DNA of 58,818 bases from Sphingomonadales bacterium (GTDB taxonomy: Bacteria; Pseudomonadota; Alphaproteobacteria; Sphingomonadales; Sphingomonadaceae): contig JAYVVW010000167.1 of assembly GCA_043786595.1 (NCBI GenBank), positions 1 through 58,818 on the forward strand. The letters run 5' to 3'. Shown in pieces: positions 23,079-34,463 of this stretch. The first letter of the stretch is position 1, and the number at the start of each line of letters is the position of its first letter. The notes under the pieces are model-generated. The model did not search any database. It was given only the letters and a program-made list of their open reading frames with translations, and was not told where the DNA came from. A program made the position numbers and the translations under genes.

Positions 23079-24286
23079 GCCTGATCAAGGAAGTCACGCC
23101 AACCACCGGCGATGAGCAGATCGAGAATTACACAATCAATTTCGGCCCGCAGCATCCATCTGCGCACGGCGTGCTTCGCCTTGTCATGGAGCTTGACGGT
23201 GAGATTGTTGAGCGGCTTGATCCGCATATCGGTCTGCTCCACCGCGGCACTGAAAAGCTGATCGAGCATAAGACCTATCTCCAGGCGCTACCCTATTTTG
23301 ACCGGCTCGATTACGCCTCTCCGCTCGCGATGGAATATACTTATGTGCTTGCGATTGAGAAGTTGCTCAATCTTGAAGTGCCGCTGCGCGCGCAATATCT
23401 CCGGGTGTTCTTTGCCGAACTGACGCGCGTTTCAAACCATGTCCTCAATCTTGCCCACCACACGCTAGACGTTGGCGCGATGACGCCCGGCCTCTGGATG
23501 TATGAAACGCGTGAGGATTGCCTCAACTTCTTTGAACGGGCGAGCGGTGCGCGGATGCATTGTGCCTTGTTTCGCCCCGGCGGGCTGCATCAGGATGTTC
23601 CTCTCAAGCTGCTCGCCGATATTGGTGACTGGCTCGACAACCGTTTGCCGCGCCTGTTTGAAGATGGGCTGAAACTTGTGGTCGACAACCGCATATTCAA
23701 GCAGCGCAATGTGGGTATCGCGGTCGTCAGCAAGGATGATGCGATCAAATGGGGCTTTTCAGGCCCGATGATCCGCGCGGCTGGCGTCCCGTGGGATCTG
23801 CGCAAGTCGCAGCCTTATGATGTCTATGACCGGATGGAATTTGACATTCCCGTCGGCACCAAGGGCGATTGCTATGACCGGTTCATGGTTCGCTGTGAGG
23901 AAGTCCGCCAGTCGATCCGCATCATGAAACAGTGCCTGCGCGATATGCCCGAGGGGCCAATCGCTTCGGATGACCGCAAGATCGTCCCCCCCAAGCGCGC
24001 CGAGATGAAGCAAAGCATGGAAGCGCTGATCCACCACTTCAAACTCTACACCGAAGGGTTTAAGGTGCCCGCAGGCAGCGTCTACGTCGCGACTGAAAGC
24101 CCCAAGGGGGAGTTTGGGGTGTATCTTGTTTCGGATGGGTCGAACAAGCCTTACCGCTGCAAGATTAGGCCGACGGCGTTTTCGCACTTGCAGGCGATGG
24201 ATTTCATGACGCGCGGGCATATGCTGGCGGATACGACGGCGATTCTCGGCGCGCTCGACATTGTGTTTGGGGAGTGTGACCGGTGA
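23075..24286 (+). CDS. nuoD: NADH-quinone oxidoreductase subunit D
   Basis: [29 protein letters not shown]. Confidence 0.98.
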
Positions 24287-24600
24287 GGCTGCCATTAATT
24301 GATCAATATGCAGCTTATCTGAGACGAGGCTTTATATCAGACCGGCGATATTTTTCCTTCGGTAGACGTGAACAAGCAAAATTTTTACTGGCTGGGGGTT
24401 TGCTAGTTTTACTTGCAAATGAGTATGTAGAGTACTCTTGTTATAGATATTTGTTGATAGTAGTTGCAACGCTGATTGGTTTTGGCGGTACATTGTTTGT
24501 GTTGATTACACAGTTATGCATAGCTGATAGATTTGGAGATAAACGATACAATATATTCATCCGTAAAAGGCTGTCGGATGAATATCGAGATGACAAATAA
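24283..24600 (+). CDS. Accessory AT-rich two-TM hypothetical protein (cargo)
   Basis: GTGA overlap with nuoD stop; visibly AT-rich; two hydrophobic stretches. Confidence 0.65.
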
Positions 24601-24649
24601 TGGCTGACACCTCCACTATGCCCAACGAAGCCGCACCCCACGCCTTTTT

Positions 24650-24731
24650 CGTCATTGCGAGCGAAGCGCGGCAACCCAGTTCTACGTTCGGAAGACTGGA
24701 TTGCCGCGTCGCTTCGCTCCTCGCAATGACG
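24650..24731. repeat. REP-like palindromic element, copy 1
   Basis: CGTCATTGCGAG...GCGGCAACCCAG / CTGGATTGCCGC...CTCGCAATGACG nested inverted repeats. Confidence 0.85.
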
Positions 24732-24791
24732 GGAGGCGAATGTGGCTGACACCCCCACCATCCGCAACCGCGTCGAAGCCCGCGCCCTATT

Positions 24792-24872
24792 CGTCATTGC
24801 GAGCGAAGCGCGGCAATCCAGTTCCACGTTCGGGATTCTGGATTGCCGTGTCGCTTTGCTCCTCGCAATGAG
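24792..24872. repeat. REP-like palindromic element, copy 2
   Basis: CGTCATTGCGAG...CGGCAATCCAG / CTGGATTGCCG...CTCGCAATGAG. Confidence 0.85.
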
Positions 24873-24905
24873 GGGGGCATGCTATCCTCTGAAAGGCGCG
24901 ATCAG

Positions 24906-25133
24906 ATGACTGAGAATGTTGAAAGTTTGATCCTTGAGCGCCTGTGCCGGATGGACGAACGGCTGGGCAATATCGAGGATGATATGATGGGCATAAAGAC
25001 GCGCGTGTCAGCGATCGATGAACATCTTGCGGGCATGTTGATCAGTCTTGGAGGCCTCAACACGCGAATGGGCAAATTCGACGAACGGTTTGCCCGCGTT
25101 GAACGGCGGCTTGATCTGACAGAGGTTCGATAG
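24906..25133 (+). CDS. Small coiled-coil hypothetical protein (cargo)
   Basis: [22 protein letters not shown]...[12 protein letters not shown] with heptad pattern. Confidence 0.7.
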
Positions 25134-25261
25134 TGCAGAGGTTGCCAACCGCGTTCTGGCATTTGCGAGCAATGGATTTCATGACGCGCGGGCAAATGTT
25201 GGCGGATACGTCGGCGATTTCGGGCGCGCGCGATAGTGTGTTTGGGGAGTGTGACCAGTGA
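25134..25261 (+). pseudogene. Decayed duplicate of the nuoD 3' end
   Basis: [38 protein letters not shown] versus Nuo[39 protein letters not shown]. Confidence 0.92.
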
Positions 25262-25785
25262 TCGGACGGCGGGAAATGTTGGCGGCTACAGCTGCAGGTA
25301 TCGGCGCGATCGCATCGGCAAGCGGAGCCGACGCTTGCACGCTGATCGCAACACGTAGAGCAAAACCATTCCGATCGTCGACTTGCGAGCGTCAAATCCG
25401 TCAGATCGTTGATTTTGCGAACCTCGCGCATGCAAAAACCGATGAAGAGGTAACCGCCTGGGCTGAAAAGACGGGTATCGATGCGCAGTATGGCGGTGAC
25501 GATTTTGATAATAGCCGGGTTTTGCAAACCATGCGGATTTCTGATGGCAAAGTTGACCTCAAGCCCATCAGAATTCTTGAGATAAATCTGCTTCGACAGC
25601 TTGGAAACAAAGCAAGTTATCAATTTACGTTGCGCCGGAACCAGTTTTCGGCAGCTGATGACGAAGGTTGCAACGGCCTGTTCACGCACGGCGAATTCTA
25701 CTCAGATGTAGACACAGCTTTTCTTGCTTGGTTTGAGGATAACGAGTTTCAAGGCTTTCGCGAATTTCCCGAGTGGTATGTTTGA
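25258..25785 (+). CDS. Exported hypothetical protein with Tat-like signal (cargo)
   Basis: GRREML twin-arginine motif, h-region and ADA cleavage site; GTGA overlap with the nuoD copy; TGATG overlap with nuoE. Confidence 0.7.
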
Positions 25786-32177: not shown

Positions 32178-32191
32178 ATGGGGACTGTGTC

Positions 32192-33235
32192 ATGACCGCC
32201 TTTTTCCAATCGACCGTTCTCGGCACCTATGGTGGCTGGTTTGTGGCGAACCTCATTCTGGCTCTTCTCATCGCGTTGCCGCTGATGCTCGCGGTTGCGA
32301 TGATCATCTATGCCGAGCGCAAGTTATGGGCGGCGTTTGCGCTGCGGCGTGGGCCTAATGTCGTCGGGCCGTTCGGCGTATTGCAGAGCTTTGCTGACGG
32401 CCTCAAAGTCTTCCTTCAGGAAACGATCATCCCGAGCGCGGCGAACCGGGGTCTGTTCCTGATCGCGCCGATCATCACTTTCACCGTTGCGCTGATTGTG
32501 TGGGCGGTGATCCCATTTGGTGCGGGGATGATGCTTGCCGATATCAATGTAGGGCTGCTGTATATTCTCGCGGCGTCAAGCCTTGGTGTTTACGGCGTGA
32601 TCATCGCGGGCTGGGCGTCGAATTCCAAGTATCCGTTTTACTCCGCACTTCGCGCCGCCGCGCAGATGGTCAGCTATGAAGTGAGCATTGGCTTCATCCT
32701 GATTTCGGTTGTGCTGTGGTCGGGCAGCTTCAACATGAGCGTGATCGTCGAGATGCAGCGTTCGCATTTGTGGATCACCAATGGTTACGGCTTCAATCCG
32801 CTGTTTTTCCCCGTGGCGGTGATGTTTTTCATCTCCTCACTCGCCGAAACAGCGCGCGCGCCGTTTGATCTGACCGAGGCCGAAAGCGAGCTCGTCGCGG
32901 GGTATCAGACCGAATATAGCTCGATGGCGTTCGCGCTCTATTGGCTCGGCGAATATGCCAATGTGATTCTGATGTGCACGCTCAACGCGATCCTGTTCTG
33001 GGGCGGCTATCTCCCCCCGATCGATTGGGCGCCGCTTTACGTCGTGCCGGGATTTGTCTGGCTGTTCATCAAGTTTTTGGTGTTTTTCTTCCTCTTTGCG
33101 TGGGTGAAGGCCACCGTGCCGCGCTACCGCTATGACCAATTGATGCGGCTGGGGTGGAAGGTGTTTCTGCCGATCTCGCTGTTGTGGGTGGTGCTGGTGA
33201 GCGGGTATTTGATGCTGACGAGATATGGGGGATGA
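32192..33235 (+). CDS. nuoH: NADH-quinone oxidoreductase subunit H
   Basis: [36 protein letters not shown]. Confidence 0.97.
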
Positions 33236-33693
33236 TTGGAACGATCCTATTTTTTGCTTCGTCAGTTGCTCAGGTTGCGACTTTTGATTGTTCGATGGTG
33301 ACGAGTTCGGTGGGCGGGCAGCCAGTGGGCGGCCAACCTTATCTCATATATGCCAACGGTAAATGGATCCCAGACCGATATGACGAGTTGATCACACTAC
33401 CCCGTTGGGCTGTCGATGGTGAGGCTTCAATTCGCATTAGCGATGTTGGCCGTCTTCGAGTTGAGAGTCGCGCTCCCCTTCAGACGGTTTTAGAAAACGC
33501 TGATGGTATAACCCTATCTTTCGGGTACCCCGGCCATGGGGGTGAAATGAGATTTAGTAGCTGGACGAGCAAATTAGCTAATTGGCGCACAGAGTCGCTT
33601 ACTCACCATGCTGGCACTGTTATTAGTGATGGCACCTGCAAAATTTTGAAACTCAAAAGGCCATCCCGTTCCTTCATTAGGAAAATGCAATGA
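33232..33693 (+). CDS. Hypothetical, probably exported protein (cargo)
   Basis: ATGA overlap with nuoH stop; short signal-like N-terminus; two Cys. Confidence 0.65.
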
Positions 33694-33709
33694 TCGCCCA
33701 ACGTATAGA

Positions 33710-33840
33710 AAATTCCTCCCCGGCACGGGGAGGTGGCATGCTTAGCATGACGGAGGGGCAGTCACTTGCGCACTGTCTGCTGCATCCTGCCCCACCACCA
33801 CCCTTCGGGCGGTCCCCCTCCCCGTACCGGGGAGGAATTT
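33710..33840. repeat. 131-bp palindromic MITE/REP-like element
   Basis: 24-bp terminal inverted repeats AAATTCCTCCCCGG(C/T)ACGGGGAGG with one mismatch, each itself a hairpin. Confidence 0.85.
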
Positions 33841-33844
33841 CGCT

Positions 33845-34333
33845 GTGAACCAAATCACCCATCTCATCAAAACCTTCACGCTGTGGGAGTTCATCAAAGC
33901 CCACGCGCTGACCTTGAAATACTTCTTCAAGGAGAAGGCGACAATCAACTATCCGTTTGAGAAGAACCCGCTGTCGCCGCGCTTTCGCGGTGAACATGCG
34001 CTGCGCCGTTATCCCAGTGGCGAGGAGCGCTGCATCGCGTGCACGCTGTGTGAGGCCGTCTGCCCGGCACAGGCGATCACGATTGAGGCGGAACCGCGCG
34101 AGGATGGCAGCAGGCGGACGACGCGTTACGACCTGGATATGACGAAGTGCATTTTCTGCGGCTTCTGTGTCGAAGCCTGTCCGGTTGACGCGATCGTCGA
34201 GGGGCCGAACTTTGAATATGCAACCGAAACGCGCGAGGAACTGCTGTATGACAAGAGCAAGCTTCTCGACAACGGCGACAAATGGGAACGCGCGATTGCT
34301 GCAAACCTTGCCGCCGATGCACCGTACCGATAG
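33845..34333 (+). CDS. nuoI: NADH-quinone oxidoreductase subunit I
   Basis: Two CxxCxxCxxxCP motifs; PRFRGEH. Confidence 0.98.
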
Positions 34334-34363
34334 AGGGCGCGCTGTGAGAATAACCGCTTCCCC

Positions 34364-34452
34364 CCTTTGCGCCTTTGCGCCTTTGCGTGAGCTAAATTCC
34401 ACGCTCGGGGACGCACGGTCGCTGAGTATTTTTTCACGCAAAGGCGCAAAGG
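34364..34452. repeat. Tandem-unit inverted repeat (CTTTGCG)n-TGAG...TTCA-(CGCAAAG)n
   Basis: Three units on the left arm, two on the right, 8-bp period. Confidence 0.85.
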
Positions 34453-34463
34453 GGAATCTTATC

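What the first reader, a model, noticed from the sequence alone, without database searches (positions are those of the whole stretch)
24283..34463. The nuo operon acts as an integrase-free gene-cassette array
Seen: every junction from nuoD to nuoJ carries an insertion. D/E has three ORFs, E/F one, F/G three (one broken), G/H two, H/I one, and I/J a repeat only. nuoA-D and nuoJ-N have none. All cargo is co-oriented, mostly small membrane or exported proteins, often AT-richer, and usually joined by GTGA/ATGA/TGATG overlaps, so operon translation is preserved. No recombinase or transposase is recognisable. Inference: a recurrent capture and exchange process that uses conserved core-gene ends as homology arms and a strongly expressed operon as the promoter, functionally like an integron. 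Scattered insertions in nuo operons are known, but this organisation with scars suggests a specific mechanism.
Basis: partly seen in the sequence, partly recalled or inferred. Interest (0 to 1): 0.85.

Follow-up and report, generated by a model that had tools for sequence, protein, structure and literature searches.

The report
Coupled cargo slots in nuo operon
The respiratory complex I operon of this sphingomonad has nine small extra genes and six hairpin repeats wedged between its core genes, unlike the inserts of its relatives and chained by overlapping stop and start codons; they likely arrive by recombination through the core genes' own ends and likely survive only if translation can run on, a known kind of gene swapping rather than an integron.

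Summary
Confirmed. Six junctions (nuoD-J) hold 4,693 bp of inserts, the most of 76 complete sphingomonad operons compared (median 1,092). They contain nine cargo genes, one unidentifiable ORF, six hairpins, and decayed copies of the nuoE start (two), nuoD end and nuoF end. Relatives carry different inserts or none; D/E, E/F and F/G are hot family-wide. Cargo families mostly keep one junction, and c3 and c6 sit behind copies of the gene end that their homologs directly follow elsewhere. Every hairpin-only insert at an overlap junction keeps the coupled frame open (43/43; other frames 8, 15). Three hairpin types flank small nuclease genes (GIY-YIG, DUF559, GxxExxY) elsewhere in the genome. No attC-like site or IntI was found; the S10-spc operon is almost insert-free (1/433); atp, pcc and kor operons carry similar inserts. 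Best reading: minimal-mobile-element slots filled and stacked by recombination via core-gene ends, filtered by translational coupling (0.6). Recombination tracts were not detected and expression is untested. Each ingredient has precedent (URFs, MMEs, long target duplications, MIRUs, Ssn), and this scan noted them before on other genomes; the family-wide picture was not found in print.

The parts
23075..24286 (+). nuoD (core)
   Evidence: Pfam Complex1_49kDa
24283..24600 (+). c1, 105-aa membrane-type cargo ORF, GC 0.38, GTGA overlap with nuoD stop; no family
24600..24749 (+). bridge ORF 1 (49 aa): copy of first ~45 nt of nuoE plus CGTC-type hairpin 24650-24731
   Evidence: 87.5% over 40 nt; z -8.2
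24742..24909 (+). bridge ORF 2 (55 aa): second nuoE-start copy plus CGTC-type hairpin 24792-24873
   Evidence: (z -6.7)
24906..25133 (+). c2, 75-aa coiled-coil-like cargo; family found at D/E, E/F and F/G in relatives and beside a GxxExxY gene on contig C225
25133..25261 (+). bridge ORF 3 (42 aa): decayed in-frame copy of the last 118 nt of nuoD (85%), ending at its stop
25258..25785 (+). c3, 175-aa cargo with twin-arginine-like N-terminus (motif recalled); 28 homologs; two homolog loci directly follow a nuoD end
25785..26423 (+). nuoE (core)
26420..26572 (+). c4, 50-aa hydrophobic cargo ORF
26569..26688 (+). bridge ORF (39 aa) through hairpin 26588-26677; stops 4 nt before nuoF
   Evidence: (z -4.7)
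26693..27991 (+). nuoF (core)
27988..28188 (+). 66-codon ORF of unknown origin, coupled at both ends; no homolog found
28185..28889 (+). c5, 234-aa predicted exported all-helical protein with four invariant cysteines; member of a divergent family that sits at nuoF/G across the family
28886..28976 (+). decayed nuoF-end copy (75% over 57 nt, with a deletion), read as an in-frame leader into c6
28973..29527 (+). c6, 184-aa predicted exported cysteine-containing cargo; 3 of 3 homologs found in 400 family genomes directly follow a nuoF stop
29520..31532 (+). nuoG (core)
31529..31792 (+). c7, 87-aa membrane cargo, weak paralog of c8
   Evidence: E about 4e-4
31789..32067 (+). c8, 92-aa membrane cargo; last 17 nt match the nuoG end at 16 positions (scar or convergent ribosome-binding end)
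32064..32195 (+). bridge ORF (43 aa) through 8-mer-periodic hairpin 32082-32177, ATGA overlaps at both ends
   Evidence: (z -6.5)
32192..33235 (+). nuoH (core)
33232..33693 (+). c9, 153-aa predicted exported orphan
   Evidence: only itself among 19 candidates
33690..33848 (+). bridge ORF (52 aa) through hairpin 33710-33840 of the type flanking DUF559 genes
   Evidence: (z -7.9)
33845..34333 (+). nuoI (core)
34344..34463 (+). open frame through hairpin 34362-34454, in frame with nuoJ; type found beside a GxxExxY gene
   Evidence: (z -4.9)
34464..35078 (+). nuoJ (core)

Best explanation
The junctions between nuo genes are exchangeable slots holding small co-oriented genes and hairpin repeats that differ among relatives; the inserts are likely swapped and stacked by host recombination through the neighbouring core-gene ends and are likely kept only when an overlapping stop-start chain lets ribosomes pass to the next subunit. 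SHOWN: slot contents vary between relatives, cargo families mostly keep one junction, duplicated gene ends and starts are anchored at codon boundaries, and coupling frames stay open. INFERRED step 1: incoming DNA from another sphingomonad (transformation or a gene transfer agent) pairs in the flanking core genes; crossovers on both sides replace the slot content (minimal-mobile-element mode). INFERRED step 2: when only one side pairs, the other end is joined illegitimately, often at a hairpin, which leaves a second gene end or start and stacks a new cargo beside the old one. INFERRED step 3: the hairpins are gene-less copies of repeats that flank small nuclease genes elsewhere in the genome and spread independently of the cargo. 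INFERRED step 4: a 50-85 kcal/mol untranslated hairpin or a broken overlap would cut expression of downstream subunits, so only coupled inserts persist. The cargo gains a promoter and ribosome supply; it is probably a passenger set of envelope proteins, not part of complex I.
For: Turnover: sister genomes at 92-96% core identity differ at slots (L006/L007 F/G 733 vs 2 nt; L019/L020 F/G 727 vs 519, 39% alike); 62 D/E cargo ORFs fall in 40 clusters. Junction fidelity: c5 family 38 of 39 at F/G and SnoaL 15 of 15 at D/E, 15 smaller clusters 50 of 60; c5 relatives from genome-wide searches 14 of 15 loci at nuoF/G and 42 of 47 genomes within 7 kb of nuoE. c5-family identity (13-47%) barely tracks core identity (73-92%; Spearman 0.13). 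Cargo travels with its upstream gene end: c6 homologs (3 of 3) start on the nuoF stop and c3 homologs (2 of 8) on the nuoD stop, and in the window each sits behind a copy of that end. Scars recur: 6 end copies finishing exactly at the stop and 8 start copies beginning at the ATG among 261 inserts. Some duplications are chimeric: the L003 nuoE-start copy is 95% like L010's native start and 71% like its own; in L008 the nuoI-start copy matches its sister genomes (86-87%) while the working start matches another clade (86%). Coupling: 56 of 68 genus and 140 of 193 family inserts have a strict chain (13.8 and 41.1 expected from shuffles); with the frame fixed beforehand, 43 of 43 hairpin-size inserts are open against 8 and 15 for the other frames; hairpins in other co-oriented gaps of this genome chain in 4 of 29. 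Repeat-nuclease links. comEC and a GTA-type gene are present.
Against: No recombination tract was seen: flank identity at junctions with different content was not clearly lower than elsewhere (-0.005 vs -0.003, p 0.056, pairs not independent). Cargo frequency did not track flank conservation across the 13 junctions (rho 0.10-0.43, none significant). In the window both nuoE-start copies best match the genome's own start (83%, rank 1 of 85) and the nuoD-end copy is equally near its own gene and a relative's (85-86%), so local duplication is not excluded. The SnoaL cargo does follow the core (Spearman 0.52), as expected from vertical descent with loss. 6 of 8 c3 homolog loci and 9 places of the c5 family lie outside nuo. 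None of 274 nuo inserts held a recognisable copy of this genome's nuclease genes. Chimera calls rest on 45-66 nt. Shuffle controls are weak for real genes; related genomes are not independent.
Confidence: 0.6

Rival explanations
1. The hairpin-nuclease systems drive the process: Ssn-like, DUF559 or GxxExxY enzymes cut at their repeats and create the joints, so hairpins act like attC sites and the nucleases like an integrase in trans.
For: In L003 and L004 the joint between two cassettes reads nuoE start, hairpin, nuoD end. The same CGTC hairpin follows the nuoE-start copy at about the same position in the window and in L003, L004, L005, L008 and L041. The GIY-YIG gene of this genome sits in the pccB-mce junction between such hairpins and two mce-start copies. 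SsnA cuts single-stranded DNA beside its repeat and modulates transformation (PMC11893778, sections read).
Against: The end copies in the window (nuoD, nuoF), L001, L058 and L096 have no hairpin at the joint; most cargo inserts have no listed hairpin motif (D/E 9 with motif, 60 with cargo); Ssn has been shown to cut, not to join; korA-korB and MoxR-VWA scars have no hairpin.
Confidence: 0.17
2. Old accessory genes of the operon (like the Rhodobacter and Paracoccus URFs), inherited vertically, duplicated locally and lost patchily; some help assemble or protect the soluble arm of complex I.
For: Strong junction fidelity; SnoaL follows the core tree; cargo concentrates at D/E, E/F and F/G, the genes of the soluble arm; c5 is single-copy in this genome; window start copies best match the own gene.
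Against: 8 of 76 complete operons have no insert and sister species differ; 40 clusters at one slot; c5 family diverges to 13-47% without following the core; cargo is mostly predicted membrane or exported (109 of 157 vs 481 of 1431 by a crude hydropathy rule) whereas NuoD-G are cytoplasmic (established knowledge); chimeric scars.
Confidence: 0.13
3. No slot-specific mechanism: random illegitimate insertions everywhere, with the pattern produced only by purging of those that break an essential operon.
For: At least eight unrelated hairpin types show the same coupling, which points to selection; inserts occur in several operons.
Against: Does not explain why unrelated genera carry the same families at the same junction, or why copies of gene ends precede exactly the cargo that follows that end elsewhere.
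Confidence: 0.07
4. A true integron or CALIN array that lost its integrase.
For: Co-oriented, promoter-poor single-gene cargo in tandem (one search shows no excess of promoter-like sites).
Against: No attC-like pair in 24283-34463; no IntI over the cut-off in the genome; cargo genes overlap their neighbours, leaving no room for attC; the array is interleaved with core genes.
Confidence: 0.02

Closest known systems
Minimal mobile elements (MMEs) of Neisseria (Saunders & Snyder 2002; Snyder 2007; seen only as defined in passages of PMC3082526, PMC3787668, PMC1797815)
   Same: Different whole-gene cassettes between two conserved genes, no recombinase, homologous recombination inferred.
   Different: Here six consecutive slots lie inside one translationally coupled operon, comparison is between species and genera rather than strains, and cassettes stack with duplicated gene ends.
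[quoted passage not shown]
   Same: Non-Nuo genes intermixed with nuo genes in Alphaproteobacteria, known since the 1990s.
   Different: The passages read treat them as fixed extras; turnover, scars and bridging frames are not mentioned there.
Insertion with long target duplication (Furuta et al. 2010, PMC2853133, passages)
   Same: Inserts flanked by duplications over 30 bp that often span a start or stop, no mobile-element genes, mostly competent species, one case in an operon.
   Different: Described for restriction-modification genes with near-identical repeats; here cargo is envelope proteins, copies are 60-87% alike and often one-sided.
MIRUs of mycobacteria (passages of PMC12548453; section 9 of PMC3184786)
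   Same: Short repeats at start codons whose small ORF overlaps the neighbouring genes at -4, proposed to preserve expression.
   Different: One repeat family with a built-in ORF; here at least eight unrelated hairpin types with variable flanks all keep the frame, and they coexist with cargo genes.
CGTC-type REPs (PMC3733652, passages) and the Ssn/SRM system (PMC11893778, sections 6, 10, 12 and passages)
   Same: CGTC head-to-head hairpin dimers in sphingomonads; a ~100-aa single-domain GIY-YIG gene flanked by them in this genome.
   Different: In the passages read neither paper links them to operon junctions or coupling; the DUF559 and GxxExxY repeat pairs are not covered there.
Integrons / CALIN arrays (recalled)
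   Same: Tandem promoter-less cargo expressed from one upstream promoter; order can record history.
   Different: No IntI, attI or attC; cargo is interleaved with core genes.

Membership tests
Minimal mobile element | Two conserved flanking genes | tested here: met
   nuo genes 73-92% aa identity across loci
Minimal mobile element | Different whole-gene cassettes (or none) at the same site in relatives | tested here: met
   shown between species, not between strains
Minimal mobile element | No mobility gene in the cassette | tested here: met
Minimal mobile element | Incorporation by homologous recombination in the flanks | tested here: inconclusive
   chimeric scars for; flank-identity and conservation tests null
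Insertion with long target duplication | Direct repeat over 30 bp of the target around the insert | tested here: met
   nuoD end 118 nt, nuoE start about 45 nt twice, nuoF end about 57-90 nt; most inserts in relatives have no such copy (8 end and 10 start hits in 261)
Insertion with long target duplication | Restriction-modification genes as the insert | tested here: not met
   no R-M family among window cargo or 84 representatives
MIRU-like coupled repeat | Repeat ORF overlapping both neighbouring genes | tested here: met
   43 of 43 open, 41 of 43 stop beside the next start; NTGA at both ends in 14 of 25 strongly palindromic inserts
MIRU-like coupled repeat | Sequence homology to MIRUs | not tested
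   no MIRU sequence fetched; Rfam gave only a tRNA
Ssn/SRM system | Single-domain ~100-aa GIY-YIG gene flanked by inverted repeats | tested here: met
   G000 C27 (97 aa, CGTC hairpins both sides) and C186; outside the window
Ssn/SRM system | cd10448 clade membership and site-specific ssDNA cleavage | not testable with these tools
   no CDD library, no assay
Integron / CALIN | IntI integrase | tested here: not met
   TIGR02249 best 75 bits vs cut-off 265; genome 98.8% complete, 248 contigs
Integron / CALIN | attC site after each cassette | tested here: not met
   0 RYYYAAC...GTTRRRY pairs (pattern recalled) in 24283-34463; cargo stops overlap the next start

The most novel reading that the evidence does not exclude
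Coupled junctions of energy-metabolism operons are a general, integrase-free gene-capture platform in sphingomonads: small repeat-specific nucleases cut incoming DNA at their hairpins, the host recombines the other end into a core gene, and translational coupling both selects and expresses the captured envelope genes, giving a multi-slot variable array inside an essential operon.
Probability: 0.25. Interest if true: 0.8.

Novelty: new variant of a known kind. Interest (0 to 1): 0.52.

Why it matters
It shows where and how orphan envelope genes enter genomes without a mobile element, and makes three open questions testable in one locus: how long-target-duplication inserts form, what the repeat-flanked Ssn, DUF559 and GxxExxY nucleases do, and how strongly translational coupling is selected (43 of 43 natural hairpin inserts obey it). 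It also yields at least three uncharacterised protein families with a fixed genomic address (c3, c5, c6), and a contrast (nuo and atp permissive, S10-spc refractory) that 'high expression' alone does not explain.

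Tried and rejected
Misassembly: rejected (with the limits given). Expression: no RNA holder listed, untested. Within-species swap: run X4 covers most of the operon but not 28260-29500; no contig joins across, the run was read to 83%, so nothing is concluded. Recombination tracts and flank conservation versus insert rate: null. General target-site duplication at hairpin-only inserts: weak (start side 5.2 vs 3.8 of 15, end side 4.6 vs 4.3). 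Phage origin: no c5 relative in viral contigs; PHROGs hit only c2. Cargo function: no Pfam or NCBIfam family over cut-off for window cargo; 5 of 84 representatives from relatives had a Pfam family; the c5 model (pLDDT 85) found no match with E<=0.001 and best Z 4.5, which shows neither a known nor a new fold; ESM Atlas gave only unnamed clusters; c6 is not detectably related to c5. Promoters and terminators: no clear excess (15 vs 10.4, 30 vs 26.6). The maximum-likelihood tree did not finish and was replaced by FastTree. One search used an overwritten query file and was repeated. L016 F/G is a mis-call at a contig end: it is inside the counts 68 and 253 and was dropped. The atp count was unusable (variable N-termini) and was redone. 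Literature: ten full-text searches found no paper on sphingomonad nuo junction turnover; the library lacks most subscription papers, Snyder 2007 was not held and the supplements of PMC3082526, which list MMEs and may include nuo sites, could not be read.

Full report
Setting. The window is contig C167 of G000, a sphingomonad: named loci carrying relatives of its cargo are Sphingomonas, Sphingopyxis and Sphingosinicella. nuoA-N runs from 21455 to 40407 on the + strand; D-J were confirmed by Pfam.

Observation. Inserts of 1498, 269, 1528, 659, 609 and 130 nt fill D/E to I/J, and the other junctions are -10 to +10 nt. They hold nine cargo genes (c1-c9), a 66-codon ORF with no homolog found, six hairpins (z -4.7 to -8.2 against shuffles), and copies of core-gene ends: the nuoE start at 24600 and 24742, the last 118 nt of nuoD at 25144 (85%), and the nuoF end at about 28901 (75%). 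Scars and hairpins are themselves short ORFs. D/E is a six-link chain from the nuoD stop to the nuoE start with overlaps of -4, -1, -8, -4, -1, -4, -1; F/G, G/H and H/I are also unbroken; E/F ends 4 nt short; I/J runs in frame into nuoJ. Logan contigs reproduce five stretches across these junctions with no differing letter, though the runs belong to one study and may include the source sample.

Relatives. I fetched nuo loci for 24 of the 25 genus genomes with a nuoE match, 60 of 117 family genomes (taken from the upper part of the ranking) and 16 of 24 from other families. Inserts of 90 nt or more occur at D/E in 19 of 24 genus loci (window included) and 42 of 60 family loci, E/F 12 of 24 and 38 of 60, F/G 13 of 21 and 39 of 60, G/H 5 of 17 and 18 of 60, rarely elsewhere and never at M/N; other families of the order have few. 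The window carries the most insert DNA of 76 complete operons (4,693 bp; median 1,092; 8 empty). Sister genomes differ: L006 and L007 (92% core identity) have 733 and 2 nt at F/G; L019 and L020 (94%) have unrelated F/G inserts.

Cargo. Of 329 chain ORFs, 157 are singletons; 5 of 84 cluster representatives have a Pfam family; 109 of 157 cargo ORFs look membrane-bound or exported by a crude rule, against 481 of 1431 similar-sized ORFs of G000. Families keep their address: the c5 family is at F/G in 38 of 39 cases, SnoaL at D/E in 15 of 15, smaller clusters 50 of 60. Searches not restricted to nuo agree: 14 of 15 c5 loci (one duplicates a locus already held) and 42 of 47 genomes, with 9 places elsewhere; 3 of 3 c6 homologs in 400 genomes; 2 of 8 c3 loci. 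The c5 family is 13-47% identical where cores are 73-92%, with Spearman 0.13, whereas SnoaL follows the core (0.52). The coiled-coil c2 family moves between D/E, E/F and F/G and also lies beside a hairpin and a GxxExxY gene on C225.

Scars. Among 261 inserts, 8 hold an upstream-end match (6 ending exactly at the stop, one with a deletion, one unanchored) and 10 a downstream-start match (8 from the ATG); internal control segments reached the same score in 13 of 753 cases, anchoring not examined. The telling point is that c6 homologs start on the nuoF stop and two c3 homologs on the nuoD stop, while in the window c6 and c3 start on the stop of the nuoF and nuoD copies: cargo and gene end behave as one unit. 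Some duplications mix two lineages: L003's nuoE-start copy is 95% like L010's gene and 71% like its own; L008's nuoI-start copy matches its sisters at 86-87% and its working start matches L020 at 86%; the working nuoE starts of L003, L008 and L041, all behind the same hairpin type, are each other's best matches (81-83%). These are 45-66 nt comparisons. In the window the start copies best match the own gene, so local duplication is possible there. Against the model, flank identity did not drop clearly at swapped slots and insert rate did not follow flank conservation.

Coupling filter. Strict chains exist in 56 of 68 genus and 140 of 193 family inserts (13.8 and 41.1 expected from shuffles; one of the 68 is a mis-call). 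The cleaner test uses hairpin-size inserts at overlap-type junctions with the frame fixed in advance by the upstream stop: 43 of 43 are open, the other two frames 8 and 15; the stop lands beside the next start in 41 of 43 against 3 and 6. Eight motif classes contribute. Hairpins in other co-oriented gaps of G000 chain in 4 of 29 (own gene calls). Kin are not independent, but the contrast is large.

Hairpins and nucleases. The CGTC hairpin has 61 sites in G000, the others 4-5 close matches each. G000 encodes three short GIY-YIG, six DUF559 and two GxxExxY genes; two, four and two of them have such motifs within 260 nt. The GIY-YIG gene on C27 lies in the pccB-mce junction between CGTC hairpins, two mce-start copies and two cargo ORFs. 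No copy of these nucleases was found in 274 nuo inserts. The 26588 hairpin had no nuclease gene assigned.

Specificity. The build recurs at korA-korB, MoxR-VWA and rplY-pth-ychF of G000 (names read from the sequences, recalled) and in atp operons (inserts of 300 nt or more in 6 of 21 loci), but the S10-spc operon has 1 insert in 433 junction observations against 68 in 253 for nuo. There is no attC-like pair, no IntI over cut-off and no tyrosine recombinase on this contig; comEC and a GTA-type gene exist.

Mechanism. Shown: variable slots, junction fidelity, anchored duplications, open coupling frames, repeat-nuclease adjacency. Inferred: double crossovers in the core genes swap cargo; one-sided crossovers with an illegitimate or hairpin-placed second joint stack it and leave scars; hairpins spread from nuclease-flanking repeats; selection removes inserts that uncouple downstream subunits. 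Whether new cargo enters next to the intact gene (integron-like order) or behind the old cargo cannot be told from these data. Confidence 0.6; nuclease-driven joining 0.17; vertical accessory genes 0.13.

Known versus new. Extra ORFs in alphaproteobacterial nuo operons (PMC4758237, PMC9036352, passages), MMEs (PMC3082526, PMC3787668, PMC1797815, passages), long target duplications spanning starts and stops (PMC2853133, passages), coupled MIRU repeats (PMC12548453 passages, PMC3184786 section 9), CGTC REPs (PMC3733652, passages), Ssn (PMC11893778, three sections) and ORFan insertion into operons (PMC1480536, passages, which call internal insertions uncommon) cover each ingredient; PMC5082802 (passages) added nothing. 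Earlier notes of this scan report bridges, junction-fixed genes, Ssn units and end duplications on other genomes. Ten searches found no paper joining these into a family-wide multi-slot array, within a library that lacks most subscription journals. Verdict: real, a new variant of a known kind, works like a row of MMEs with a MIRU-like coupling filter, not an integron; interest 0.52.

Noticed in passing
G000 C27:11762-15173 (L104): pccB-mce junction holds two cargo ORFs, two mce-start copies, CGTC hairpins and a 97-aa GIY-YIG gene; further down the operon a VapBC-like pair and two small membrane ORFs with hairpins lie between the mutase and carboxylase genes.
   Followed up: partly
G000 C34:17427-21319: Between the two 2-oxoacid:ferredoxin oxidoreductase genes a 25-nt copy of the downstream start serves as the start of a 73-aa gene, followed by a 201-aa PIN-like gene: a scar apparently recruited as a translation start.
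   Followed up: partly
G000 C100:5990-10572: MoxR-VWA junction holds a DNA methyltransferase-like and a nuclease-like gene followed by a 40-nt copy of the VWA gene start: a classic long-target-duplication case.
   Followed up: partly
G000 C225 (L112): rplY-pth-ychF cluster carries a hairpin bridge ORF, a c2-family gene, a hairpin and a GxxExxY gene.
   Followed up: partly
G000 C64:1-1947: A second nuoH-nuoI pair (79% and 90% aa identity) with a different, coupled 104-aa lipoprotein-like cargo; probably a co-binned relative, possibly a stray donor fragment.
   Followed up: no
L001-L100, nuoF and nuoG ends: Both genes end in EAAE (63 of 82 and 77 of 79 loci); three cargo clusters are split between exactly F/G and G/H, which could reflect this shared end.
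   Followed up: partly
L044 D/E: A superinfection-immunity (Imm_superinfect) family gene is cargo between nuoD and nuoE, a hint that some cargo is phage-related.
   Followed up: no
L177 atpG/atpD: A 1589-nt coupled chain of four ORFs sits inside the atp operon of a genus relative.
   Followed up: no
window 51991-54147: comEC competence gene in the same window; a tRNA at 11525-11598.
   Followed up: no
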